From assembly GCF_009914755.1 (NCBI RefSeq), contig NC_060933.1: DNA of 64,000 bases. One strand, 5' to 3'. Shown piece after piece: positions 15,666 through 60,634 of the stretch (position 1 is its first letter; the number at the start of each line of letters is the position of its first letter). This stretch comes from the human T2T-CHM13v2.0 reference genome, Homo sapiens. The position numbers and the translations under genes were made by a program. A model generated the notes under the pieces. It had not been told where the DNA came from, made no database searches, and was given only the letters and a program-made list of their open reading frames with translations.

Positions 15666-15842
15666 CAGTGGTTCTCAAAGTATGCTCCCTGACCAGTGGC
15701 ATTAACATCATCTGGGAACTTACTAAAAATGCAAATTCTTGGGCCTACTGATCCAGAAACTCTGGAGGTGGGGCCCAGCAATCTATGTTTTAACAAGCCT
15801 TCCAAGTGATTCTGATGGAAGCTAAAATGCATGACCCACTGA
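15666..15842. mobile_element. MER5A
   Basis: cagtggttctcaaag...aatgcaaattcttgggcc...ttttaacaagcc. Confidence 0.8.
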
Positions 15843-18302: not shown

Positions 18303-19336
18303 TTTAGTTATTAGCTACTTTCTATCATAATCCAATGAATTTCTCCATACAACCTTTTTCTTCTAATAAACAACACCTTGCAGAGAGCTGGTCCTTGAGG
18401 CCACGGAGCACTTTGATATAATGTGGCTTGGCTTTCTTTTCAGTTTACAGGCCAAAAGGCAGACACAGAGAGGCACAGTGATTTTTCCCAAGTTACACAG
18501 TCAATCAGAGATGGAGCCAAAAGTTATGCTTTCTTCTGAGTCAACAAAAAAGCTACAGGATTGAATACAGAGCTGCAGCTAAGTTCACTGAAAGTTTATT
18601 TATATCCCTTGGAGAATTAGAAAGTACTCACACACGTTTTTCAAAGTTAAGTCTTATTATACCATATCAATGTATAGCTTGTAGTATACCTGTATCTCTG
18701 AGTAAAGTATTAAAAACAAGTCATATGACTGTTTATTAATGCTGCCTCTTTTTGTATTGATTCCACCCATCCCTTCTACTCCTTTCCTCTTCTGTAAAGC
18801 AGTAGCTCATCAGATGGCATTTCAGAACCCTGAGAATATGAAAGACATCATGCACTAAGGTTTTCCTATCACATCTCAATGCCATTAGGTGAATAACACC
18901 GGCATGCATCTTCACTACTAAATGTCATACAAACAAATTTCAGTTGTTTCACATGCAACCTGTGTGGCTGCTGCAGTTTGTATCAACTATGTAACCACAG
19001 GGTGGGCAAAATAGCATTCAAAATGAGCTATAGTGCAAGATACCATCCATACGTAGAGTTAAGCCCTTTCATGCTTAGCAGTCACAATCAGGATATCTTT
19101 GGCCCACAGAAACCTATCCTGACTGGAATTTTCCTCTCCTGTGTGTCTCCTGGATATAGTAAGTTCCTAATAAACATCTCCTCTGATTGCTAGCCTTGAC
19201 AAATTTCCAGGAGAACCAGGGCAAGGAGAAGACAGTGAGGCAGTGCCCGCTGCTCTTCAGATCACCAACAGAATAGAGTCAGAATATGATATTATTGAAA
19301 CCTTCCAAGTTTGAATTAAGATAAAAACAACTTTTT

Positions 19337-20400
19337 CAAAATACCAAAAACCTTTTATTTAAGAAAGTGAAATCGCTCGATGTGCCCTCCCACTCTGGTT
19401 AGATGCTCAACAGACCACAGCAGACAATGCACCTCAACCAGGGCTAAGTGTGCAAGAAAACTGAAGTACACAAAAAGCAAATTATAGACTCAGGTACTGT
19501 CAGGCACAAAAGAAGAACCAACCCTTTCTAGGAGTCTTGTCTTTGCTTCCTTTATTCTTTCCTCGATTCTTGTAATTGAATGTTACAAAGTATATCAAGA
19601 GGAATAAACGTATGGGGCCCCTCTCTTCCAAACAAGAAAAGGTTAAGCTTTTAATTACAGGCCCTCAAACTATCATTTTGTGCAATTAGCAATTAACTAT
19701 AATCGTTGATGAGCAAATGCAAAGCTGCGCTAGCAATTTCCCTTCTCCTCATCCCAGGCTGGGTTATTTCAGTCTTGTTCTATTACAGAGGACCAGACAC
19801 AACCGCGCGCACTCTCTTTCAAACATACACACTCTCTCACTTAAAGACACATTTAGTTTTCGGCAAAACGGCATCTCAGCGTGCGATTGAGACCGGCATC
19901 CCAAACCCCACATTTGAGCAGCCCAAACGTTTGGAGCCCCTCCGCTTCATCACTTTCTGAGTGGATAGAGGAGGCCCGAAGAAGATGCTACCTACCAGCC
20001 TCTCTCAGGGGCGCAGGAGAGGGTGGTAGAGAGATGCTTGTTGCCCCTGGAAACTGCAAGTACCCCCCAGGTGCACGCCCCGTCAGTGGGGAGGCGGTGG
20101 CAACAGCAACGATAGTTGCATCAGCGCTAACTGCTGCTGCTGCTGCGTGTTCTGCCGGAGGCTGCCGGGAGGGTACAGTAATGACTGTAGGGAGCGCACA
20201 GCCGCTGCGGCGGCAGGTTCCCTGGATCAGGAAATTAGGACAGGCACCGGGGATTGGAGGCGAGGGCGGCGCGCGAGCCAACCAGCGGTCGCCCCGGGCC
20301 CCCGTGAGCCCCAGGCGAACGCGCGGAGCAGCCGGGCCCCTAGAGCGGTCCGGGTGGCGGCGGCGGCAGCCACGACCACGACCGCGGTCACTCACGCACG
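19337..20400 (-). ncRNA. Putative short spliced divergent antisense transcript (VLDLR-AS1-type isoform): exon ending 19996, intron 19995-19461, last exon 19460-~19337
   Basis: Minus strand: donor CTG|GTAGGT; acceptor tttgctttttgtgtacttcag|; AATAAA at 19359-19354; U/GU-rich element after the putative cleavage site. An antisense lncRNA is known at this locus, but this isoform and its TSS are inferred. Confidence 0.5.
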
Positions 20401-20521
20401 CTCACACTCGCACGCTCCCCGCGCGGGCACCCGGCTGCCCGGCGCGTGCAAGAGGAGCGCGTCGAGGGAAAGGAGGGCCGAAGCCGCCGCGCTCCCGCCC
20501 GCCCGCCGCGCCTCCCGTTGA

Positions 20522-21034
<513 letters not shown>

Positions 21035-24000
21035 TAAGGACGCGCCCCTCCGCCGGCGGGCGGGACCCAGCCGGGGCACCGGGAGACCCCGAGGCGTAGG
21101 TCTCCGTTTGCCCACCCGCCTCCTAGGAGGCGCCTCTCGGTTCTCCTCGCCTTCCCTCCCTCCCCTCCGTGGTGGCGCCTCTGAGCTGTCAGCGCCGAGG
21201 CTAAAGGGAGCCGGGCTTGGGGAACAGCGGGGTTCGGGGTGCCCCGACGCCTCGCCTGAACTAGTCTTCTGCCCCTCACTCCGCCTCCCCCAGAGCCGCT
21301 GCTTTGCCTCGCTTCTCGCCCTCTTGACGGGCGCCGAGGTGCGTGGGCTTCTGAGCATTGAACAATGGTTCTGCCTCCTCTGCCAGGCGCAGTGTTGGGA
21401 AGGAGGCAGAGGGCCAAGACGTGTGCGGCAGCCTCGGGCGCACCCTCGAACCCCGGGGAGTGCGGGAGCGGACGGGGGGAGAAGGTGAGCGCCTCCGGGG
21501 ACGCGGAGCGCCAGGGGCCGGCCGGGCTTCAGAGTCTTCCGGCGGCCGCGAGCTGGCGCACGTTCGGTGGGCGGCGGCCGGGAGGCTCCGCGGAGCCGAG
21601 GGCACCCGGACTGCGACTCCCCCGGCGCGGGGCCGCCTCTCCGGCGTGCGGGGTAGGGGAGCGGCGGGGCTTTACGCAGGACTCTGCTCTGGGCGCTTCT
21701 CCTCTCCCTTTTCCCCGCCTCGGGCGGCGTTTGGAAACCGCTCGGGTCTCCCGTGTAGCTGAACGCGGAGGGGGAGTGGAGGGGAGACTTAATCTGGTTA
21801 GTTTGCTGACCCTCCTTCCCGGTGACGTTTCCTCGAGAGGAATTGAGTCCTAGGCTAGTGACTGTAATTAGCCTTCATTCTACACAATAGCTCAAAGGAG
21901 CAGCGCGAGAGCGAGCGTGTGGCCCTGTCTTGTTGGGAAGGGCGGCGGTGACTACTGTCGGGTCCCCAGACTCTGCCGCGGGGGCCTGGGGGCCCCGCCT
22001 GGTCGTCAGCCACGTTCCCACTTGGGGCCTCGTAACTTTCCTGGACAGGCGACAGGAAGCCTTTCTGAGAGGACTCAGTCGGAATCCTAGCGCGTCCCCG
22101 AAGTGATCTTCAGATGTGACGCCGAGGGGCTTGCTTGCCAGCTGCAGGGAATTGGGACTGAAAGCCGCCCAGGCCCTTAACACCCGTTCCAGAGTCCCTG
22201 GCTCCCGTCGCCGGGTGGCTTCAGGGGCCCTAGCCGGCCTGCAGTCACGTGCTCCTGAAGTGAGAGCGAACTTTAAAGCATGTGGTCAAGGAGCCTGTCG
22301 GGCAGCGCCTGGGGTTTTTACGTCTCCGAATGCCCCTGCCCTTTGGTTGCCACTGTCCGGAGCGTGTGAACTGGGACTGGCCTTTCCGCCCTCTGCGATT
22401 GGTTAGCGGTGCGATCACGTTTAGGTTGGTCACATGGTTCCGCGGACTCTTAAGTGGGCAGCATGGGCAGTGTTATTTTCAATGGAAAGTAGGAGACTCC
22501 ACAGGCTCTTACGGGCTGTTCTCTCAAATGCCTTCCCCTGCCTGGACTCTTTGAAGAGGACGAATGTGTAGTGAACATGGAATCTGATGTGTAACAAGCC
22601 TGAGAGCCTAGAAAAGCTCTGCTTACAAGAGTTTCCAAACGCTAGCATTAATCATTAATAGATGAGTAATACTAACTTATTAAACGATTTCTCAGTATAG
22701 TGCCATGACTTGCATTATGCCTTTTGTAACATTTCAAAACGCTAAGGTATACCAGAAGGAGGGACAATTATCCAGGAAGGTGAGAGAAAAGTTTCGTTTT
22801 TGCTGCATGTCCCTTCCACTAGAGGTTAACTTTACCTTATAGAATGCTAGGAATGCACCTAAACTACTGACATGAGTTAGTCAAAGCCAGATGTTCACCT
22901 TGTATTGGGCAGGTGAGGATCCTTTTCACTTTGTCACATGTGAAATATTTGACATGCCATGAACAATGGAAAAACAAATTCTTCAAAGGAGAGGAAGCAG
23001 ATTCTTCCAGAACTGGAGGAAATTTGGGCTGAGGCAGTTATTGACCCTAAACCAATCCCAACCGGCATCTGTCTTAAGTTCAAAGTCTCAGGGCATGTGG
23101 GCTGACTTTCTACCCTGGAGCTTCTACACATACCCCTTCTGTCCACTGGCACATGGTGCTGTTCCACAATACTCCTGGACAAGACAGGTGAACACTGAGA
23201 CTCTGGCAAGGAACTTAAGGCTAACAAGAAGTTGGTATACCTGATTGCACAATTCCTGGGGGTTCTGGGACATTTTCCTTCAGCCTAAGTAGTCAAGATT
23301 AAGATCTGTGGTATGATATATTCTTTAAGGCCAGAGTCTAAAAGAACCAAGGTTTTTTGAGAGCTATTCATATATGGCTAGCAACTAGCCTAAGAATAGA
23401 AAGAAAATTCCCTCATTGTGAGAAGTGGGTTGGTGGTACTGGTGGTAGTAATAGACCTGGAGGTAGGAAACTGGTTGGCATGGAAAGTAAACTTGGCTCA
23501 TCCAGATAGCACCAATGAAGGTATGACGATGATAGTACCCCTTATCAAAGACTGATCACTCATGTGAGCAGGGACTGCGTAAAGGAAGGTCACCAGCCAA
23601 GCCCTCCTTGGCAGTAACAGCTTCATGAAATCTAGTGTAGCTTTGTTCCCTGGATCACCCTCTTGCCCACTTTATGTGGCATTTACCTATAGTGCCTGTC
23701 CTGTGTCATTTTGATTGTTTGCTTTTATGGCCTGAGTCCCCAGATACTTAAAGCATGTATAAAGGTCAAGTAGAGCTGCCAAATATTAAGACTTTAGTAC
23801 AATAGACTGCTATTTAACACTAAACATTGCTAGCAAAGGTGACAGTCTCCATGCTCAAAAGAAGTGAAGACCTGATCCAAGTGTCTCTACCTGTCATAAA
23901 ATTGAATAACCGTAAACTTGACTTGAGTAGTTTCATTACAGTTTTGGAAGAGGAAAAAAGTTGTTACAAGCCCCTTCTGCTCCAGGAGAGGTATCAAATT

Positions 24001-24865
24001 GATAAGACTTAACAAGAACTCCTAGAGTAGAACATGACCATAAGATCAAGGGAACACATAGTACCCAGCCGTGTGGCTTCGGGTTTTGATCCCAAACCTT
24101 GAAGACTTGGCACACAGCATAGAAATACAGCTAATTCATTTTAAATATCTAGCCCATTTTCTGTTTCTCACAGAATGTAAATTTGTTCTTTTCAGTGCAG
24201 GGAAAAGTGTTTAAGACAAGGCAGTTGCCTACGTGACTTAAAGTAATGATTGCATTCACTTTGGATACTGACTTTCATTTGGAAAACCACCTTCACATAC
24301 TAGCCTATAAGAAATTAAATGTATTAAAGGGCTTGATGAGGTCTATAATGATGTTCGTTGTAAATGTACCTGCCTTAGGGAGCTCCTTGTGGTGGCTAAT
24401 ACAACTGCCCTCTACATGGTTAGTTGATAAATTCAAAATTGCTTAGTTTGGTCCCTACTAATTTAATCTCAAAAGAATACTTGGACAACAGAGTGATAGA
24501 CTACTTTCAAGGCAAACAGTCCAAAAATACTGTCTGCTGAGGTTATGGGCGAGATATACTTGTTAAGCGGAAGTAAGTAGTCCAGGGACAATTTTTTCTG
24601 CCACCTAAAGAGTTTTGGGCTAGAAAATCTGAGGACTGATAGTTTTTCTGAAGAGTTGGGGCAGAGTCTAACCTAGCTATAGGCGAATCTGGCTTTTAAG
24701 TAAAAATCATCTCAATTTTACTGTCTGCATTTTTCAAACTAAATCAGTGTCTCTTTGCTAAGTTCGTCTATTGGCTTGCAACAAAAACTCTAAACACTGT
24801 TAATACCACTTAGTTAAGTACACTAACTGCACTGCAGGAACCAAATGAGATGGCAGGTGATAACA

Positions 24866-27775: not shown

Positions 27776-27979
27776 CAGTGGTTCTCAAAGTGTGGACCGA
27801 AATTGGCAACATTAATTCAATGTTAATTGAGTTCATGTGTCAACATTGACTCATTAGAAATGCAAACTTAGGCCCTGTTCTAGACCTGCTGAATCAGAAT
27901 CCAGGCTGGGGCCCAGCATTCTGTGTTTTAACAAGCCTTCCTGGGGATTCTGATGCACACGGGAGCTTGAGAACGACTG
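27776..27979. mobile_element. MER5A
   Basis: cagtggttctcaaagtgtgg...ttagaaatgcaaa...ttgagaacgactg. Confidence 0.8.
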
Positions 27980-52590: not shown

Positions 52591-52626
52591 ATATCAGTTG
52601 TAAGCACAGATGATGATCTAGCTTGA
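52591..52626 (+). CDS. VLDLR: VLDLR exon 19 coding part (ISVVSTDDDLA*)
   Basis: ccacag| acceptor, TGA at 52624-52626; summed exon lengths = 2622 nt = 873 aa + stop. Confidence 0.99.
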   Translation: MSVVSTDDDLA

Positions 52627-53219
52627 CTTCTGTGACAAATGTTGACCTTTGAGGTCTAAACAAATAATACCCCCGTCGGAATGGTAACCGAGCCAGCAGC
52701 TGAAGTCTCTTTTTCTTCCTCTCGGCTGGAAGAACATCAAGATACCTTTGCGTGGATCAAGCTTGTGTACTTGACCGTTTTTATATTACTTTTGTAAATA
52801 TTCTTGTCCACATTCTACTTCAGCTTTGGATGTGGTTACCGAGTATCTGTAACCCTTGAATTTCTAGACAGTATTGCCACCTCTGGCCAAATATGCACTT
52901 TCCCTAGAAAGCCATATTCCAGCAGTGAAACTTGTGCTATAGTGTATACCACCTGTACATACATTGTATAGGCCATCTGTAAATATCCCAGAGAACAATC
53001 ACTATTCTTAAGCACTTTGAAAATATTTCTATGTAAATTATTGTAAACTTTTTCAATGGTTGGGACAATGGCAATAGGACAAAACGGGTTACTAAGATGA
53101 AATTGCCAAAAAAATTTATAAACTAATTTTGTACGTATGAATGATATCTTTGACCTCAATGGAGGTTTGCAAAGACTGAGTGTTCAAACTACTGTACATT
53201 TTTTTTCAAGTGCTAAAAA

Positions 53220-53225
53220 ATTAAA
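53220..53225 (+). terminator. Proximal poly(A) signal ATTAAA of VLDLR
   Basis: ATTAAA ~600 nt after the stop, upstream TGTA motifs, downstream GGTTTGTG. Confidence 0.7.
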
Positions 53226-53721
53226 CCAAGCAGCTTAACCATGGTTTGTGCCTGTTCCTCTAGGATGAACTCCTATCCTGAGTAGTACCAAGTGTTCTAA
53301 CTAAATGTGTGAGCTGTAGTTCTTGATGTTGTATAACTAAGCCTGTAATTGGGCTGGTTTCTCTTACACCCTAGCACAGTTAAAAAATGAAGTACTGTTT
53401 AACATTTGCTCCCGAAATATTTCTTACTGTGTAAAAGAAGCTAGCTTAGTCTGTACCTAGAATTCCTCTTGGTTAGAGGAGTGAGTTTCTTTTTTTTCCA
53501 TTAACTTGTTTCCTGATCGAGAAACACGTGCTAAGATTTCTATGAATTCTGCTTCTTTATAGTTAAGTCTCTGTTTTCCATGTTCTGTCATTTATATAGG
53601 TCAAGGACAAGTGCCTTCTAAGGCATGGATAAGGGCTTTCTTCTTATGAAAGTCTAGACTGTCTTACTGTGAAGATGGCCAGGGAGGATAGCAAGCAATG
53701 GCATTCTTGAACAGTCTAAGG

Positions 53722-53903
53722 CAGGTTTCTCAGTGTGGTCCTGAGAACAGAAGCATCTGCATCACCTGGGAATGTATTAGAAATGCAAGTTCCCAGCCCC
53801 ATCCCAGACCTACTGAATCAGAAACTCTGGGGGCGAGGGCTGAAACCTGCTTTCATAAGCCCTTCAGGCGATACTGATGTAAACTAAAGCTTAAAAACCA
53901 CCG
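53722..53903. mobile_element. MER5A in the extended 3'UTR region
   Basis: catctgcatcacctggg...ttagaaatgcaag...cagacctactgaatcagaaactctggg. Confidence 0.8.
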
Positions 53904-54951
53904 TTTTACTGTGACTTCATGAAGAATATAATTGCAATATCACCTAAATTTTTATCCTGGCTGGGATGGGGCAGATTCTTACTATGGACAATTTCTGGAA
54001 CTTACAGTATGAAGAGCAGATGAGGAGTTTGAGACAAAGAAAAAATTGTACAGGGAGTTTAGTGAATTTTCCATCAGGTTGGCCATTACTTTCTTTCTCT
54101 AAAGTCTCAGGATGTCTGGAAGCAAGGAAAGACAAAAGACTTGAAGCACCGGGTGCATGCTGTGTGTCACAAGTGAGGTGGAGAGTTGGCTGTGGAAGGT
54201 ACAGCAATTCCTCTGGAATTAAATGACCGACCAACACAGTACCAAGAGGATGAAGAGAAGATGTTTTGCGTTGCTACGTGAATCAGTGGATGACTCATAT
54301 TTCACTTGCATATGAAATATAAGGCAGTTAACATCTTGTTTGTGGCTTAAGCAAGGACATTAATCCTACTAGATGAAGGGGAAGTTGGTTCTGTTGTCTT
54401 AAGGGATGCCCCCTTGTGATTTTGGTCAACTGAATGAAAAAGAAAAGATAGCCTTGGACTTTTTTTTCATGGGAGGTTTGGAGGTCAAGCATGTAGAAGG
54501 AAAAGGCTGTAGTCATGAATATAGAACTGTCTGCTCTCCACCTTTTCCTCACTCTACATTTAGTCATCACACTGAACAGGATGTGGCCTGCTGACAGTGA
54601 GTAGCTGAAGTGCCTGTTTGGTAAGTAGGTTAGCATTCATCATGAACTCTGAAAGCCATTTCAGAGTTTGGCTGCTGCTCTGACCCTGCTGTGGTACAAA
54701 AAACATGGATTTTTTTTTTTTTAACTGGAGTAATACCAAATTCCCTTTAGAAGCTTGAAGTTTGATACTATTGCTTTCCCCATTATAAGGATTATACAGT
54801 ATTAATTAATTATAAGGCCCAAAGTTTGTTTTGGCAAATAAAGTATTATTCTCTATCATCATCTTTTGAATTCCTGTCCCTAGTATGTTCTTTCATGTTC
54901 TGGGTAAAATTTCCAACCCTCAAAGAGTCTAAAACGTCTCATTTTTTTTTA

Positions 54952-55224
<273 letters not shown>

Positions 55225-55700
55225 TTATATGACTAAACTACTAGTCAATACAGCTTGCAATAATAGTGCATGAATGATAACAGGCCTCGGCTTTATCACC
55301 CAAAAAATAACTTGAATTCTATGTGAAATGTGTTAGGATAAGTTTGCTCTGTCTCTAGAGTTCAATGTAGAAGATAATTAAGAGGTAAAATATGAAGCTT
55401 ATCATACACTAAAGGAGAATATTTGGAGTTAGATGAGCCTGTCACACAAAGTGAAAGTGGACCCTCCAGAAATTTTAGGAATTGCCACAAAGATTGATGA
55501 TAGATGAATAAACAGATTTGTGGCCTCTGGTAAAGAAATCCAGCCAAGTTCCTCTGTCCAAATTTTTAAGTGCCCTTTGCAAGCTAATCTATTTGGCAAA
55601 AAAATAGTCCCAGTTGTTCAACTAGCTCCCTTAAAACATTCTAGTAGGTGTTTTAAAGCCTAGGTATCGCTGCCTCTTTAGTTCTTGATGAATACAAGGC

Positions 55701-55728
<28 letters not shown>
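55701..55728 (+). repeat. Poly(A)28 tract
   Basis: Direct reading; no adjacent Alu/L1 body seen. Confidence 0.95.
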
Positions 55729-55732
<4 letters not shown>

Positions 55733-56336
55733 GGCTTTCACTTTGGCATTTGCTTCTGTTCCTTGTATCTGTGGAAGTCAAGTAGCCCTTCTCAAAAATG
55801 AGAAGCCAAGCTTTAAATAGCAAACTACAGGGTATTAAAAGACTAACTCTTCAGTTAAGAACACTGTAGAAATGGTAGACCAACTTAAAGTCTACCTTTT
55901 AACAATCTTTACCCCAAACCTAAAGATTCTAGGGGTCACTTATCTCTATTACGTAATCTAACTGGAATAATTTCCTAGAATTCTTACTAGTGAAATCTTA
56001 CCCAAGTAAAACAATTTATTATTTTGAATCCAAATGAAAGCTATACTGTTTGCTTTCAATGGTGGCAAAAACTTGCAAAAAGCAGATATACTTTTGCTAA
56101 TTTAAGTTGAAGTACTATGAATACAACCTGCTAATCTTGATCCCCAAATCTGAGCCCTTCAGTTTCATAATTGTTTTATCCTGAACGTAGTTGTGACATA
56201 GACATTTCTCAAAAGGGTCTGATACATCAAACTCCTAACAAGTAGGAGCAGCAACTAGCTAAAGAGTAGAAAGAAGCTTCCCTTATTGTGGGTGATGAGG
56301 CGGTGCCTAAAAACCACATATATATATAATCCCCTG

Positions 56337-56588
56337 GGTATTACATATTCTGCAAGCCCTGTTAGTGGGGAGATGGTAGTGGCAATAGCAGCGATAGTTG
56401 CGTCAGTGCTAACTGCTGCTGCTGCCCGTTCTGTTGGCGGCTGCTGGCCAAGTGTGCACACTTAGCCCTGGTTGAGGTGCATTGTCTGCTGTCGTCTGTT
56501 AAGCATCTAACCGGAGTGGGAGGGCACATCAAGCGATTTCACTCTCTTAAAGAAAAGGTTTTTAGGTATTTTTGGTATTATATAGTCT
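56337..56588. other. Templated mosaic insertion copied from the VLDLR upstream region, with 15-bp flanking direct repeats
   Basis: 56351-56447 matches 20072-20168 (direct); 56455-56574 matches reverse complement of 19337-19454; GGTATTACATATTCT / GGTATTATATAGTCT flanks. Confidence 0.93.
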
Positions 56589-58757
56589 CTAAGGCCAGAA
56601 GGGGCTTATAATGACTTCTCTTCTAGAATTGTAATACTAAAAAACTACTCGAGTAAATATCCTAACAAGTATGATTTTTCTTGGGAAAACTAAAAATTGT
56701 ACATCCATGCTTCAGCCATATCATGGGCCTAAACTATGAGAGTTCAGAAATATATAAAAGTACAAAAATCTTCAAAGGTACTTATTTCCAAATATGGAGG
56801 GAATGAATCTGAAGAGGGAACAATGGCGTTTTTCGAACTTATTTCTCTCTAATCCAGCCTGGAGGATTTTTAGCCGAAACAGTTGCATGTGAAGGATTAT
56901 CAGCCATCTTTGCATATCCCTTTCACATCTACCTTCACACAGGAAAGCTGAATGCATTTTACCAGTGAGGCTCTAGATATGAAACTTAGGGATCCATAGA
57001 TAAATAAGCTACTAACAAACTGATAACAGTGGTGTTCCATCTCTCTATCATGTCTCCTGAGTCCGTTTCACGTTTTTGAGCCTGGCTAATGAGAAAAAGA
57101 ACAAAGTAGGACCATGACCCAGTGTTCTCCTGTAAATCTCACTGTAAAAATCTCAATGCAAAAACACTGAGACAGGAGTGAGACCAGCTGCGGGTGGGGA
57201 GTTTGTGCTCCGCAGGTTACCTCATGGCATATCAAAAATGGCTTTTTTCTTCACTGCGCTCAAGGAAAAAGTCAGATGGGTGACAAGGTGGTTCTGTTTA
57301 GAAGCAGCAGGCAATGTAGTTAACAGCATAGACTTCCGTGTCTTGTGTGTGGTACCTTGGGCAAGTTACTAACTCCCTCTGTAAAGTAGAGACGATGGGG
57401 ACTGTCTCACTGTGACAAGGTAAGATTTAAGTGAGATGCACACAAAAAGCTCAGCACAGTGTCTGGCATCTAATATGTGCAGGGCAGATGTCACTACTGA
57501 ATATCACATCAATGCTAGGGCTGTATTTACTGTCACACACAGGCACCGGTAAGTGACTTTACCGGTGAAAGTCACAGGTACCTTTATCTATGATGAATGT
57601 AATGTGTTAGATGGTGACCGAAGTGTTCTCCACTACACCTGTCTGAAGAGATCTAAGTCTGATATTTAAGGAGTGATAGCATCTTGCATACTTAAGAAGG
57701 CTTAAAAGACTGCATGGTTTAAACCCTAGAAACATAAATGGAATGTTTCTGCCTCAGTTCTTTTGACTACCTCCTAGGACATGGAAACAAATATTTGGGA
57801 GCCTGCATAGTCTTTAGATGGCTGCCAAAGCACTTAAAATCTCCTTTAAATTCTTACCATATGCTTACTTTTGTACTAAGTAAGTGCTCCCAAGTCTTTT
57901 ACTTGCTCTTCACAGCAACCCTAATAGGTATCTCCATTTTACATAGGTAAAAACTGAGGCTACAAACAATCTATGGTTCCAAATCCTATGTGCTTACTGC
58001 CGTCTTCTCTTAGAAGGGGATGCAGTACTGTACAAAGATTGAGCTGGATGTCGCATTGCATGTTTGCTGAGTCCTCCTCATTGCTGATGTTAGGATCCTT
58101 CAACAGTTTCTCAGATGCCAGCTATGGCTGGCATCCAGTATGGTGGTGTAATGGAAGTGTACTACTAGCACTACTACATCAGGTCAGCACAGATTAACTC
58201 AGTTACGTGTTATACCTTCAAGACGCTAGACATTCCAGAATTATTTTCCTTGGCCATCCAAGTGAAGTAGAAGTAGATTGTTGGATTGCAAAGAAAATGA
58301 TAAAGATTCCCTAAAGGAATTTATAAGCAGGCAACTTCATTCCTATGTATAAGATATTGGGAGAAAACAAACTGTACCACAACAAATCTTAAGTTTCAAG
58401 GCTCTCCTATAGGGAGAAACATGGCCAAAAAGACAGGAAGAACTGTGGCTTGTAACTCAATGATGCTATAACTCCAGCACTGGATCTTAAGTATTCTGGA
58501 ATATACCAGATTGGTAGAACTACCAGACTTGGGTATTTCTCAGTTAACACACATGCAAGGAGGAAGAGAGTTTTTTTGAACAAAATGACTGGCTTTGACA
58601 AAACTATCTTGCTCTTTTTAAATGTCACTTGATACTAGAATGCGATTTAAAAGCATGTAATGCCTCAGGAGTCCGGCATATACAACCAAATTATCATGCT
58701 CAGGATCTTCAGAATTCTAAAGGCACATGTTAGAATGCAGAGTCCTGATGACCTGTC

Positions 58758-58798
58758 AATAAACTTTTTTTTACTAATGAACTGTACATTTAAATAAA
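58758..58798 (+). terminator. Distal poly(A) signals (AATAAA x2) defining a ~6.2-kb long 3'UTR
   Basis: AATAAA at 58758-58763 and 58793-58798, TGTA between them, U-rich downstream. Confidence 0.6.
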
Positions 58799-60634
58799 AG
58801 TTTATTTTTGGGATAATTGTGAGCCTTTCCTTTCTCTAGAGACCTTTTATAAAAGCTTTTACTCAAATCTTTTTCCTTTTCTCAACTGAATCACTGAAGA
58901 TGACTCAGTCACCCCTTTCTAGGAACAAGTAGGGCCACCCAGGTCTGGACACTTCAGGCTGAAAAACTGAGAGATGGTCCCTTTCTTGCCATATTTAGTA
59001 CAGTTAGTGCCTCACCATGGACAGCCAGTATATTATCCTCTCAAATTTCCCCTCTCTACCCTTCCCATGAAAAAGACAGAAGTCAAAGCTACTGTTACTT
59101 AGTTAGGAATGTTAGCCTAGCACTTCCTTCTTGTAGGTGACTGAGAACAGGCCACACCTGGCTAAAGGGGGGCATATCCCAGGGCGGCAGGACAGGAAAG
59201 GACATTACAAGTAAAATCATTTTGATGCTGTCTCCTCGTTAGTTCTTAGATGGTCTGTGTTGAAATTCGTTTATAAGGCTAAAACTTTTGTGAGTCGTAG
59301 ATATATTCCACCTAAAACTTTTCTAAGCAATGGCCCCAGTTGTTCGAATTAGTTGGGCACTAAACCTTGAAATTGACTCAGAGGATCCAAAAGAGTAGGA
59401 GAAAAATAAGTAAATCGAAGGAAAGAGAAACAGTCAAAAAAATATTTTAAAGCTCAACAGTGAGTCTGTAATAAGTGAGATATTGCATTTTGTTTGAGAT
59501 GTTGATCTCACCAGCTTTGCAGTGAGGTGGATACAAGTTTGGATGTTTTTCCACTACTTAATCAGCTGTGGCCACAAGTAAGTTGCTTACCATCCAAGCT
59601 TATGTCCTCTTCTGAAAATCACAACACCTACTTTCATAGTTCTCATAAAAGAGAGAGGCAACACGTGTAAAGTGCTTCATTCAAACAACAGCTCTTTCCC
59701 TCTCTAGCACCAAAAAATAAATAAATAAATAAATCATGATTCATCTTTTTTAAAGTAAAAATCCTTATGTCTATTCGGAGATCTGATTTTGATCTGTACT
59801 CTTGTATTAAAATTCCATTTGCAAGTATTCCTTGTTAAATCTCCCCTTGAAATGCTAGCATTTGGTGATCTTTTTTTACTCAAAAAAATTAAAATGATTA
59901 ATCATGCTGCACCTATTAGGTTTGCAGAAAGCCTCGTGTGTGACCCTCTGCTGATTAAAGAACACGGATGATTGGTTTAAGTTCACCAATTATTCAGAAA
60001 TGTATTTTTAATTAGTGGGGGTAAGAAGACAGACTATACCTCATACCACTCCAGAAGATATAGCACACTCTTTGGATTTATCAAACTCAGCAAATATGAT
60101 TGGCCCGCAATCTAGGAAATGTGAAATGCTAGATTTTAGGCATGAACATTTAATGTTATAGTGTTCAATTCAGAGGCATTTCTTGCCTACTGGTTTTGAG
60201 GGCAGAGAGTATATTTTATACCCTTAGTCATTGTTTATGTTGTCTTAAATTTACTCACTTACATGTGAGATTTGCTGATTTGTTCTTTAAAGATTTGTCC
60301 TTTAAAGTTTCAGGGAAATTTGCCTTTTGACCTGACCCCAAACAAGTAGCCCTGTGGTTTGCTAAGCAGGACTTCTAAATGCTGGAAGATAATTTTAAAT
60401 AACTAGATAGCAACTGGCATTCCTCCTCAGACCTCAAGGGACTTAAAGTAACAGTTTCTAAAAGGTTCCAGAACAGTTTTATAATTGGCACATCCTAGAA
60501 GAAACATCAGTTACGGGGAAGCACACACATTTCTTAAACTTTTAACAAAATTGAGGAAGGATATATGGATCAGCCACATCAGAAGGTATCCCTCCTTATA
60601 GCCGCACATAGACATCCCCTATATGTGCTGTCTT

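What the first reader, a model, noticed from the sequence alone, without database searches (positions are those of the whole stretch)
56337..56588. VLDLR 3'UTR has captured a mosaic, partly inverted copy of its own promoter-antisense region, with target-site duplication
Seen: 56351-56447 aligns directly to 20072-20168 (about 15 substitutions plus two 3-nt indels by hand, ~84%). 56455-56574 aligns to the reverse complement of 19337-19454 (about 8 differences in ~118 nt, ~93%). The two sources are ~620 bp apart and ~36 kb away. The insert is flanked by GGTATTACATATTCT (56337-56351) and GGTATTATATAGTCT (56574-56588), 13/15 identical. Neither piece resembles an interspersed repeat I recognise. The ORF track echoes it (AAAAVSADATIVAVATASPLTG vs AAAAVSTDATIAAIATTISPLTG). 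More CpGs are lost in the 3' copy, which indicates promoter-to-3'UTR transfer. Inference: the second piece starts ~6 nt inside a minus-strand splice acceptor and stops ~17 nt after a minus-strand AATAAA, i.e. it matches an exon's limits. The layout [inverted upstream part][3' part] is that of an L1 twin-primed retrocopy. There is no poly(A) tail; instead the TSD begins with GGTATT, which matches the source 3' end (microhomology priming). So this looks like a tailless retrocopy, or RNA-templated repair patch, of the gene's own divergent antisense RNA, inserted in cis into the same gene. Promoter-terminator looping could explain the cis targeting. A DNA template-switch (MMBIR/Pol theta) origin is the alternative.
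Basis: partly seen in the sequence, partly recalled or inferred. Interest (0 to 1): 0.88.

Follow-up and report, generated by a model that had tools for sequence, protein, structure and literature searches.

The report
Nested self-copied patches in VLDLR 3'UTR
A 440-base stretch of the VLDLR 3' untranslated region is built from short pieces copied from the same gene's own 5' end, one patch inside an earlier one, which records an unusual, locally templated kind of DNA break repair.

Summary
56455-56572 is the reverse complement of 19338-19454 (111/118). 56351-56447 matches 20072-20168 (79/94 aligned, two 3-nt indels). The pair is flanked by a 15-16-nt duplication. Genome-wide, these pieces occur only at these two places, so they are not a dispersed repeat.

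The flanks are also copies, from VLDLR intron 1: 56250-56305 from 23380-23435, 56334-56351 plus 56573-56599 from 23305-23335, and 56596-56657 from the reverse complement of 23918-23979. This outer patch has its own 15-16-nt duplication at 56233-56248 and 56660-56675.

Without CpG-context changes the inner patch diverges 3.3% and the outer 13.6%.

Both layers share one geometry: forward pieces on the left, an inverted piece on the right, joined at 2-4 nt of microhomology. That fits both 3' ends of a staggered break being extended on one minus-sense single strand, as in twin priming.

The inner 3' piece has terminal-exon limits (AG 6 nt upstream, AATAAA 16 nt before its end), which favours an antisense RNA template. 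There is no poly(A) tail and no L1 endonuclease site in either layer. A DNA template-switch origin is not excluded. No outgroup genomes were available.

The parts
56233..56248 (.). Outer target-site duplication, left copy (TCCTAACAAGTAGGAG)
   Evidence: the repeat finder D1, 56233-56247 and 56660-56674, 15 nt, 93%. Read by eye it extends to 16 nt, 14/16 identical, with chance 2.6e-7 at fixed positions. Its first 12 nt are the only exact 12-mer direct repeat outside A-runs in 55000-58000.
56250..56305 (+). Outer patch, piece Y: copy of intron-1 23380-23435 in direct orientation. The core is 56250-56290; the right limit is uncertain.
   Evidence: BLASTN core 35/41, E 1.6e-7. Local alignment score 30 against a maximum of 15 in 100 shuffles. 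The first 26 nt, allowing up to 3 mismatches, occur in the whole genome only here and in intron 1.
56306..56333 (.). Unassigned 28 nt inside the outer patch, containing a short (TA)6 run
   Evidence: No significant match to the 5' region (91 of 100 shuffles score as high) or to the X-Y spacer of intron 1 (162 of 1000 shuffles).
56334..56351 (+). Outer patch, piece X, left half (about 23306-23324). It contains the inner target-site duplication, left copy, at 56336/7-56351.
   Evidence: Alignment 16/18 with one gap; sequence read.
56351..56447 (+). Inner patch, left piece (P2): copy of 20072-20168 at the upstream shore of the VLDLR CpG island, direct orientation
   Evidence: 79/94 aligned bases identical plus two 3-nt indels, E 8e-18. 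11 of the 15 substitutions are in CpG context. Source CpG observed/expected is 0.79.
56446..56467 (.). Fold-back junction. 56446-56458 repeats 19442-19454 in direct orientation (12/13), then turns into its reverse complement. This gives the perfect palindrome AAGTGTGCACACTT at 56450-56463.
   Evidence: the repeat finder I1; self inverted hit; alignment.
56455..56572 (-). Inner patch, right piece (P3): reverse complement of 19338-19454
   Evidence: 111/118, E 1e-46. It is the only other genomic copy found.
56573..56599 (+). Outer patch, piece X, right half (23309-23335). It contains the inner target-site duplication, right copy, at 56573/4-56588.
   Evidence: 24/27. This 27-mer, allowing up to 3 mismatches, occurs in the whole genome only here and in intron 1; the control pattern gave 0.
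56596..56657 (-). Outer patch, piece Z: reverse complement of intron-1 23918-23979. It overlaps X by the 4-nt microhomology CAGA.
   Evidence: 48/57 aligned bases plus two 5-nt indels. Score 25 against a maximum of 17 in 100 shuffles.
56660..56675 (.). Outer target-site duplication, right copy (TCCTAACAAGTATGAT)
19338..19462 (-). Source of P3. On the minus strand it is bounded like a terminal exon: pyrimidine tract and AG at 19462-19461, AATAAA at 19359-19354, the piece ends 16 nt later at 19338, and gttgttttt follows downstream.
   Evidence: frequency check. No RefSeq exon lies here.
20072..20168 (+). Source of P2. On the minus strand GT lies at 20063-20062 (8 nt after the piece) and AG at 20186-20185 (16 nt before it). 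It overlaps the annotated activating tile 20096-20390.
23305..23435 (+). Intron-1 source of X (23305-23335) and Y (23380-23435). Here they are contiguous in the order X then Y; in the UTR the order is Y then X.
23918..23979 (+). Intron-1 source of Z

Best explanation
Window 56233-56675 is a two-layer scar of locally templated break repair. It is not a transposable element.

Layer 1 (older). A break with a 15-16-nt stagger in the VLDLR 3'UTR was filled with a roughly 190-nt patch. The patch is stitched from three pieces of VLDLR intron 1: Y and X forward, Z inverted.

Layer 2 (younger). A second staggered break fell inside piece X of that patch. It was filled with a 222-nt patch stitched from two pieces lying 0.4-1.2 kb upstream of the VLDLR transcription start: P2 forward, P3 inverted, with a short fold-back between them.

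Both layers have one layout. If the left pieces were synthesised from the top-strand 3' end of the break and the right piece from the bottom-strand 3' end, then every piece is a plus-sense copy of a minus-sense single strand. The two new strands were then joined at microhomology (GG, CAGA). This is twin-priming geometry.

I take the template of the inner patch to have been an antisense, VLDLR-AS1-like or promoter-upstream transcript, spliced and cleaved at its poly(A) site. The copying would have been done by a reverse-transcribing polymerase, either L1 ORF2p acting non-canonically or a repair polymerase. The template was available because the gene's 5' end lies physically close to its 3' end.

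Shown: the pieces, their uniqueness, the two nested duplications, the junctions and the order of the layers. Inferred: that the layers differ in age, that the template was RNA, which enzyme did the copying, and the reason for cis targeting.

The patch is most likely a neutral passenger in the mRNA.
For: Pieces and uniqueness:
- map the pieces and show they are unique.
- With the 21 annotated masked repeats removed, the 64-kb window has only 4 non-self matches at E<=1e-4. Three of them link the 5' region to this spot.

Nested duplications:
-. The inner duplication lies inside X, so the inner layer cannot be older than the outer one.

Age:
- Substitutions outside CpG context are 7/211 in the inner layer and 17/125 in the outer, Fisher p=0.0007.
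- P3 alone is 6/117 against 18/125 in the outer layer, p=0.018.

Junctions:
- X and Z share CAGA.
- P2 and the fold-back share GG.
- The fold-back turns at TGCA.
- P3 abuts the duplication with no filler.

RNA marks on the minus strand:
- P3 starts 6 nt after a pyrimidine tract plus AG.
- P3 ends 16 nt after AATAAA, with a GU/U-rich stretch downstream.
- In this window, AATAAA at that distance occurs for 0.96% of placements, and all three marks together for 26 of 127,200 (post hoc criteria).
- P2 ends 8 nt before a GT. A GT-AG intron from 20063 to 19461 would bring the two pieces within 14 nt of each other in a spliced RNA.

Literature (passages read):
- Twin priming is described as two reverse-transcription reactions started on opposite ends of a break and joined, giving segments in opposite orientation (PMC13174262; PMC10760644).
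- RNA-derived patches without poly(A) at breaks are described (PMC5110952).
Against: - There is no poly(A) tract at either layer, and neither target resembles TTTT/A (read). Two of the three canonical ORF2p marks therefore fail.
- No RefSeq transcript has an exon at 19338-19460 or 20064-20184. The annotated VLDLR-AS1 starts at 21131, so it does not cover the intron-1 sources 23305-23979.
- The outer layer carries no RNA-processing marks by my criteria. Its bottom-strand piece comes from the upstream part of the putative RNA, not the downstream part, which is the reverse of classical twin priming.
- Retrocopies are not known to land in cis. The templated insertions in the review read mapped to 18 of 24 chromosomes without preference (PMC5110952). 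Proximity therefore has to be assumed, and proximity would serve a DNA template equally well.
- With all substitutions counted, the two layers do not differ significantly (21/211 against 18/125, p=0.22). The age gap rests on discounting CpG-context changes and on P3.
- The splice-signal and poly(A)-signal criteria were chosen after seeing the case.
Confidence: 0.45

Rival explanations
1. The anatomy is the same two-layer scar, but the template was DNA. Replication-based or break-induced template switching (FoSTeS/MMBIR-like, or polymerase-theta-type synthesis) copied short stretches from the gene's 5' end, 33-37 kb away. It switched templates and strands at microhomology, then returned about 16 nt behind the point of departure, which created the flanking duplications.
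For: - Each layer has several short templates, both forward and inverted, with 2-4 nt of microhomology at the internal joins (CAGA, GG) and a fold-back palindrome.
- Fold-back templated inverted insertions at breaks are described in yeast (PMC11724301; only the search listing and the start of the abstract were seen).
- A DNA mechanism is local by nature. That fits two hits from the same 4.6-kb source region into the same 430 bp.
- It needs no poly(A), no L1 site and no unannotated transcript.
- The scrambled Y-then-X order of the outer layer is easy to explain by template jumping.
Against: - It does not explain why P3 ends 16 nt after AATAAA and starts 6 nt after an acceptor-like AG.
- It does not explain why both layers have staggers of 15-16 nt, a length in the range usual for ORF2p (under 20 bp; PMC10760644).
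- There is no microhomology at the return junctions: P3 to the duplication has 0 nt, and the duplication to P2 has 0-1 nt.
- The templated insertions in PMC8421209 were, by the design of the search, templated within 100 bp, not tens of kb away.
- All pieces use the same template strand in the two-primer reading. With random strand choice that is about a 1 in 16 coincidence. A fixed lagging-strand template could explain it.
Confidence: 0.33
2. One complex event made the whole mosaic 56249-56659. Only the outer duplication is a true target-site duplication. The inner 15-mer pair arose because piece X was copied twice, once from each side.
For: - It would remove the need for two independent hits at one spot.
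- With all substitutions counted, the inner and outer pieces do not differ significantly (21/211 against 18/125, p=0.22).
- The two inner 15-mers differ at 2 of 15 positions, which is as expected for the older age.
Against: - P3 is less diverged than the outer pieces (6/117 against 18/125, p=0.018). Outside CpG context the difference is 7/211 against 17/125, p=0.0007.
- Two independent copies of X would have to overlap by exactly the 15-16 nt that flank P2+P3, with X continuing seamlessly outward on both sides. A target-site duplication gives this for free.
- Both 15-mers share T where intron 1 has G.
Confidence: 0.12
3. Ordinary L1-mediated retrocopies in trans (class 1 templated sequence insertions) of polyadenylated RNAs landed in the source gene by chance.
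For: Both layers have target-site duplications of 15-16 nt. The inner source has a poly(A) signal 16 nt before the end of the piece. Class 1 features are listed in PMC5110952.
Against: - No poly(A) tract and no TTTT/A site in either layer.
- A donor within 37 kb of the acceptor has a prior of about 2e-5 per event if insertion is random. Two nested events from the same 4.6-kb region make chance untenable. This is inference.
Confidence: 0.03
4. The pieces are members of an old interspersed repeat family, or the similarities are chance or an assembly artefact.
For: - The BLAST-type whole-genome search is not very sensitive. It missed the 41-nt, 85% intron-1 match itself.
- Closed regions of the reference are not shown.
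- The repeat table lists only stretches of 100 bases or more.
Against: - P2+P3 have only the two local hits.
- The 27-mer and the 26-mer, allowing up to 3 mismatches, each hit only the UTR and intron 1 in 3.1 Gb, with 0 control hits.
- No masked repeat lies at any piece.
- E-values reach 1e-46.
- The RefSeq mRNA NM_003383.5 aligns as one uninterrupted last exon, 52591-58816, across the mosaic.
Confidence: 0.02

Closest known systems
L1 5' inversion by twin priming (Ostertag and Kazazian 2001 seen only as a citation; described in PMC10760644 and PMC13174262, passages read)
   Same: Between target-site duplications lies an inverted upstream segment followed by a direct 3' segment, joined at microhomology. 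Both are complementary copies of one RNA strand, made from the two ends of a staggered break. The inner layer fits this exactly, and the duplication length of 15-16 nt is in the usual range.
   Different: There is no poly(A) tail and no TTTT/A nick site. The template is not L1 but a unique sequence from the same gene. An extra fold-back palindrome sits at the inversion junction. In the outer layer the direct piece comes from the upstream, not the 3', part of the putative RNA, and the inverted part is itself two pieces in swapped order.
Templated sequence insertion polymorphisms, classes 1 and 2 (PMC5110952, abstract and passages read)
   Same: These are short non-repeat insertions copied, not cut, from a distant unique locus. 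Class 1 has a target-site duplication and a cryptic poly(A) signal 10-20 nt before the end. Class 2 has microhomology and a few untemplated bases, no poly(A), and is thought to be an RNA-derived patch at a break.
   Different: This case mixes the two classes. It has the duplication and the poly(A) signal of class 1, without the A tract or the TTTT/A site. It has the junction features of class 2, but with a duplication. The donor is in cis, 33-37 kb away in the same gene. The event happened twice at one spot, and each insert is a multi-piece mosaic.
MMBIR/FoSTeS templated insertions (PMC8421209, passages read)
   Same: They have several templates per event, forward and inverted copying, microhomology at joins and a local origin. 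Complex germline examples with up to five templates are reported.
   Different: The templates there lie within 100 bp, by the design of the search. Here they lie 33-37 kb away. Here the insert is flanked by a clean 15-16-nt duplication with no microhomology at the outer joins. One piece has RNA-processing limits.
Tailless retropseudogenes (Schmitz et al. 2004; seen only in a reference list, content recalled)
   Same: These are retroposed copies that lack an A tail yet carry target-site duplications.
   Different: As recalled, those derive from tRNA-type small RNAs and are dispersed in trans. This case is a mosaic of unique gene-flank sequence inserted in cis.

Membership tests
Interspersed repeat / transposable element family | Many dispersed genomic copies; masked as a repeat | tested here: not met
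   Whole-genome searches find only the local partners. There is no masked stretch of 100 bases or more at any piece. Caveats: closed regions are not shown, and the BLAST-type search has limited sensitivity.
Canonical L1 ORF2p-mediated insertion (retrocopy / class 1 TSIP) | Target-site duplication under 20 bp | tested here: met
   Inner 15-16 nt, 13/15 identical. Outer 15-16 nt, 14/16 identical.
Canonical L1 ORF2p-mediated insertion (retrocopy / class 1 TSIP) | Poly(A) tract at the 3' end of the insert | tested here: not met
   P3 abuts the right duplication directly (56572|56573). Z is followed by TA and then the outer duplication. There is no T run at the left ends either.
Canonical L1 ORF2p-mediated insertion (retrocopy / class 1 TSIP) | Insertion at a TTTT/A-like endonuclease site | tested here: not met
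   I read both possible nick positions of both layers. The nearest is TTCT/CT at the right edge of the inner duplication. None has the A-rich start of the duplication.
Canonical L1 ORF2p-mediated insertion (retrocopy / class 1 TSIP) | Poly(A) signal 10-30 nt upstream of the 3' end of the copied RNA | tested here: met
   Inner layer only: AATAAA at 19359-19354, with the piece ending at 19338. In the copy the signal has since mutated. It is not met for the outer layer.
L1 twin priming | Inverted upstream segment plus direct 3' segment of one RNA, between duplications, joined at microhomology | tested here: inconclusive
   The inner layer fits in geometry and has a 2-nt GG join. The outer layer has opposite orientations and a CAGA join, but the piece order is reversed and scrambled. 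The existence of the RNA could not be tested.
Class 2 TSIP / endonuclease-independent patch at a double-strand break | No target-site duplication; microhomology or untemplated bases at junctions; no poly(A) | tested here: not met
   Duplications are present in both layers, so this feature is not met. The junction features (1-2 unassigned bases at 56249 and 56658-56659) and the lack of poly(A) are met.
MMBIR/FoSTeS templated insertion | Serial template switches, both orientations, microhomology at every join, nearby template | tested here: inconclusive
   Multiple templates and both orientations are met. Microhomology is present at internal joins (GG, TGCA, CAGA) but is 0-1 nt at the outer joins. 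The template distance is 33-37 kb, against 100 bp or less in the operational definition of PMC8421209.
Known structured RNA family (Rfam) | Match at gathering score | tested here: not met
   0 matches in the whole window at gathering score. Only chance-level hits (E 0.18-0.66) in 56150-56750.

The most novel reading that the evidence does not exclude
The locus is a germline fossil of recurrent RNA-templated break repair in cis. Minus-sense transcripts from the VLDLR 5' end (a promoter-upstream antisense RNA and an intron-1 antisense RNA) were held next to the gene's 3' end by a promoter-terminator loop. They were reverse-transcribed twice, tens of millions of years apart, from both 3' ends of staggered breaks at one fragile spot of the 3'UTR. 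As a by-product, the mRNA gained a 97-nt stretch complementary to its own antisense RNA, and a 62-nt stretch complementary to its own intron 1. These could couple sense and antisense expression.
Probability: 0.25. Interest if true: 0.8.

Novelty: new variant of a known kind. Interest (0 to 1): 0.55.

Why it matters
Short templated insertions are a recognised class of mutation. A fixed case with all of the following is unusual:
- two successive multi-piece patches sit nested at one site;
- both were copied from the 5' end of the same gene, 33-37 kb away;
- both share the same twin-primed layout;
- one of them has the limits of a processed antisense transcript.

If the template was RNA, this is natural evidence in the primate germline for RNA-templated repair acting in cis. 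It would also be evidence for lasting physical proximity of a gene's two ends. If the template was DNA, it is a clean evolutionary example of long-range template switching that leaves target-site-like duplications. Such duplications could be mistaken for marks of retrotransposition.

In practice, about 410 nt of the VLDLR 3'UTR is not ancestral UTR. It also carries strong complementarity to the antisense strand of the promoter flank (predicted duplex -172.6 kcal/mol) and to intron 1 (-65.9 kcal/mol). This matters for reading conservation, probe and primer specificity, and possible sense-antisense regulation.

Tried and rejected
Steps that led nowhere, or ideas I rejected:

1. Homology beyond the outer duplication. 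56100-56232 and 56676-56800 against 19000-24300 on both strands gave scores no better than shuffles (60/100 and 78/100 shuffles as high). The mosaic therefore stops at the outer duplications.

2. The unassigned 28 nt (56306-56333). There is no significant source in the 5' region or in the X-Y spacer of intron 1 (162/1000 shuffles). A 12/14 resemblance of 56292-56305 to 20086-20099 is not significant (91/100 shuffles).

3. Whole-genome BLAST-type searches of the flanks and of intron 1 returned only self hits. They missed even the intron-1 partner, so they could not settle uniqueness. I replaced them with pattern searches.

4. Rfam found nothing.

5. A decayed large duplication of the 5' region is rejected. 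The pieces are neither colinear nor in one orientation.

6. Transfer in the UTR-to-5' direction is rejected. The duplications flank the UTR copies. No comparable flanking repeats surround the intron-1 pieces. The CpG-rich version of P2 sits in the CpG island shore.

7. Microhomology priming at GGTATT is rejected, because both copies are retained.

8. Strand bias. In P2, taking the source as the ancestral state, C>T outnumbers G>A by 8 to 1 (p=0.04). In P3, G>A outnumbers C>T by 2 to 0. This would fit deamination of two separately primed new strands. The numbers are too small, the direction of the changes cannot be set without an outgroup, and CpG decay confounds them. I do not use it.

9. Literature. 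VLDLR with 'target site duplication' gave 2 papers, of which 1 was listed and is irrelevant (duck gene copies). VLDLR with 'templated insertion' gave 0 papers. The VLDLR-AS1 paper I read in passages gives no transcript structure.

10. I opened no supplementary files. The supplements of PMC8421209 and of the TSIP papers may list comparable events.

11. No genome other than the human reference was available. The ages given use a recalled rate of about 1e-9 substitutions per site per year per lineage.
Full report
**Observation**

- In a BLASTN of the window against itself, 56455-56572 matches the reverse complement of 19338-19454. The match is 111/118, with six substitutions and one single-base indel, E 1e-46.
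- 56351-56447 matches 20072-20168 in direct orientation, with 15 substitutions and two 3-nt indels. That is 79/94 aligned bases, or 79/100 columns, E 8e-18.
- The flanking 15-mers at 56337-56351 and 56574-56588 are 13/15 identical. The chance of that at fixed positions is 9e-7.
- The ORF echo is reproduced and is a trivial consequence of the DNA match.

**Not a repeat**

- The whole-genome search of the reference with 56337-56588 returned three places: itself and the two local sources. The reverse search with 19250-20250 returned the same.
- No stretch masked as a repeat (100 bases or more) overlaps any piece.
- After masking the 21 annotated repeats (5,093 of 64,000 bases), a self-comparison of the whole window leaves only four non-self matches at E<=1e-4. 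Three of them connect the VLDLR 5' region to this one spot in the 3'UTR.
- Matches in closed regions of the reference are not shown, so absence elsewhere is not absolute.

- 56250-56305 (piece Y; core 56250-56290, 35/41) matches 23380-23435 directly.
- 56573-56599 (24/27), together with 56334-56351, matches 23305-23335 directly (piece X).
- 56596-56657 matches the reverse complement of 23918-23979 (piece Z; 48/57 aligned bases and two 5-nt indels).

Support for these weaker matches:
- Against 100 shuffles, Y scores 30 (null maximum 15) and Z scores 25 (null maximum 17).
- The BLAST-type genome search is too insensitive for such short matches. It returned only self hits for the flanks and for intron 1.
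- I therefore ran pattern searches allowing up to 3 mismatches. The 27-mer of X and the first 26 nt of Y each occur in the 3.1-Gb genome at exactly two places, the UTR and VLDLR intron 1, with no hits to the control patterns.

This outer set is bounded by its own direct repeat.
- The repeat is TCCTAACAAGTAGGAG at 56233-56248 and TCCTAACAAGTATGAT at 56660-56675, 14/16 identical, with chance 2.6e-7 at fixed positions.
- The repeat finder reports it as 15 nt at 93%.
- Its first 12 nt are the only exact 12-mer direct repeat outside A-runs in 55000-58000.
- Beyond these repeats there is no further similarity to the 5' region.

**Map of the mosaic**

1. Outer duplication, 56233-56248.
2. One base, 56249.
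3. Y (23380-23435, forward).
4. 28 unassigned bases with a (TA)6 run.
5. X, left half, ending in the inner duplication.
6. P2 (20072-20168, forward).
7. A 9-13-nt direct copy of 19442/6-19454.
8. P3 (19454 to 19338, inverted).
9. The inner duplication, which starts the right half of X.
10. Z (23979 to 23918, inverted).
11. Two bases.
12. Outer duplication, 56660-56675.

X continues seamlessly outward on both sides of the inner insert: CTG before the left copy, CTAAGGCCAGA after the right copy. Counting the base before GGTATT (T in intron 1 and in the right copy, G in the left copy), the inner duplication may be 16 nt, the same as the outer.

**Junctions**

- X and Z overlap by CAGA.
- P2 and the short direct copy share GG.
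- The direct copy turns into its own reverse complement at TGCA. This produces the perfect 14-nt palindrome AAGTGTGCACACTT at 56450-56463.
- The seven filler bases match the expected source at 6/7, which I put at about 1e-3 at a fixed position (inference).
- P3 abuts the right duplication with no filler, and the left duplication abuts P2 with 0-1 shared base.
Both GGTATT copies are present.

**Direction and age**

- The duplications flank the UTR copies, and the source loci are intact. The transfer was therefore copy-and-paste from the 5' region to the UTR.
- The P2 source lies on the shore of the CpG island (CpG observed/expected 0.79) and has 8 CpGs against 4 in the copy.
- 11 of the 15 P2 substitutions are in CpG context.
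- Outside CpG context, the inner pieces differ from their sources at 7/211 sites (P2 4/94, P3 3/117). The outer pieces differ at 17/125 (Y core 6/41, X 3/27, Z 8/57). Fisher p=0.0007.
- P3 alone against the outer pieces gives 6/117 against 18/125, p=0.018.
- With all substitutions counted the difference is not significant (21/211 against 18/125, p=0.22). The age gap is therefore probable, not proven.
- The order of the layers follows from the nesting, independently of divergence.
- With a recalled rate of 1e-9 per site per year per lineage, the inner layer dates to about 17 My (7-34) and the outer to about 68 My (40-109). Both loci may be under constraint, so these are rough.

**Mechanism**

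Both layers have the same layout: forward pieces on the left, one inverted piece on the right, a microhomology join, and a 15-16-nt duplication outside. Suppose the break had 15-16-nt 3' overhangs and both 3' ends were extended. Then every piece in both layers (Y, X and P2 from the top-strand end; Z and P3 from the bottom-strand end) is a plus-sense copy of a minus-sense template. This is inference from the map. It is the twin-priming geometry described for L1 (passages in PMC10760644, and PMC13174262). The fold-back is what a snap-back of one new 3' end would give.

The minus strand is the sense of VLDLR-AS1. On it the P3 source looks like a terminal exon.
- It has a pyrimidine tract with AG at 19462-19461, 6 nt before the piece.
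- AATAAA lies at 19359-19354, and the piece ends 16 nt later.
- A GU/U-rich stretch follows downstream.
- Among 127,200 placements of a 117-nt piece in this window, 7.1% have such an acceptor, 0.96% such an AATAAA, 0.10% also the downstream element, and 0.02% all three. The criteria were set after seeing the case.
- P2 ends 8 nt before a GT. A GT-AG intron 20063-19461 would put the two pieces 14 nt apart in a spliced RNA.

These marks are my main reason to prefer an RNA template for the inner layer.

**Against that reading**

- There is no poly(A) tract, and neither target is TTTT/A-like in either layer. Two of the three canonical ORF2p marks listed in the reviews fail.
- RefSeq has no exon at the P2 or P3 sources. 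The annotated VLDLR-AS1 starts at 21131 and cannot cover 23305-23979.
- The outer layer has no processing marks by my criteria, and its piece order is the reverse of classical twin priming.
- Retrocopies and RNA-derived patches are not known to prefer cis. The review reports origins on 18 of 24 chromosomes without preference.

Two nested hits from one 4.6-kb source into one 430-bp target cannot be random. Some form of physical proximity, or a fragile target, has to be assumed, and that would serve a DNA template just as well.

Replicative template switching of the MMBIR/FoSTeS type explains the multi-template, two-orientation, microhomology-joined structure. Complex germline events with up to five templates are reported (PMC8421209). 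Fold-back insertions at breaks are also reported (PMC11724301; only the listing was seen). It does not explain the RNA-like limits of P3, the missing microhomology at the outer joins, or the L1-like stagger occurring twice.

I put the RNA-templated twin-primed patch at 0.45, the DNA version at 0.33, a single complex event at 0.12, chance L1 retrocopies at 0.03 and repeat or artefact at 0.02.

**Consequences**

The patch lies about 3.6 kb into the 6.2-kb 3'UTR of all full-length RefSeq VLDLR mRNAs.
- P2 in the mRNA can form a near-continuous duplex with any minus-sense RNA crossing 20072-20168, for example the first intron of the VLDLR-AS1 primary transcript. The predicted energy is -172.6 kcal/mol, z -15.8 against shuffles.
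- Z in the UTR can pair with its source in intron 1 of the same pre-mRNA (-65.9 kcal/mol, z -14.8).
- P3 is same-sense and does not pair.

These follow automatically from the copying and are not evidence of function. No Rfam family matches.

**Comparison and novelty**

The nearest known kinds are templated sequence insertions (classes 1 and 2), L1 twin priming, MMBIR templated insertions and, from recall, tailless retropseudogenes. The locus meets no full definition of any of them (see the membership table). It is best called a new variant of templated insertion: in cis, recurrent, nested, multi-piece, with target-site duplications but no tail.

I found nothing in print on it. VLDLR with 'target site duplication' gave 2 papers, of which the 1 listed is irrelevant. 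VLDLR with 'templated insertion' gave 0 papers.

**Limits**

- No outgroup genomes, transcript data or chromatin contact data were available.
- I opened no supplementary files.
- Closed regions of the reference are invisible to the searches.

Noticed in passing
window 27907-27955 and 15769-15817; weaker 53760-53901: This is the only other unmasked non-self match in the window: 49 nt at 90%. Weaker matches of about 67% link 53760-53901 in the 3'UTR to the same two places. It is probably a short, old interspersed repeat below the 100-base masking list.
   Followed up: no
window 23918-23979, minus strand: On the minus strand, the intron-1 source of piece Z is bounded exactly by AG on one side (ctcctggag|CAGAAGG) and GT on the other (AGTCAA|gtttac), like a small exon. 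It did not pass my pyrimidine-tract and +3 purine criteria. It may be chance.
   Followed up: partly
window 56351-56572: Substitutions are strand-asymmetric, taking the source as the ancestral state. In P2, C>T outnumbers G>A by 8 to 1 (p=0.04). In P3, G>A outnumbers C>T by 2 to 0. This pattern would fit deamination of two separately primed new strands. The direction of the changes cannot be set without an outgroup, the numbers are small, and CpG decay confounds them.
   Followed up: partly
window 20096-20390: The P2 source overlaps an annotated reporter-assay 'activating' tile (K562, promoter-flank state) by 73 bp. The UTR therefore carries a decayed copy of part of a promoter-flank element.
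   Followed up: no
window 56316-56331: A short (TA)6-type run sits in the unassigned part of the outer patch, a few bases from the inner insertion point. A longer ancestral AT repeat could have made the spot fragile. This is untested.
   Followed up: no
window 55064-55231 and 55700-55720: The 3'UTR contains an Alu-like fragment that matches many other places in the window at 81-84%. An A-run of about 20 nt lies 500 bp downstream of it.
   Followed up: no
window 56381-56426: A sub-threshold Rfam hit to mir-1538 lies inside the P2 copy: 20.7 bits against a gathering score of 78, E 0.18. I take it as chance in GC-rich, CTG-repeat-like sequence.
   Followed up: no
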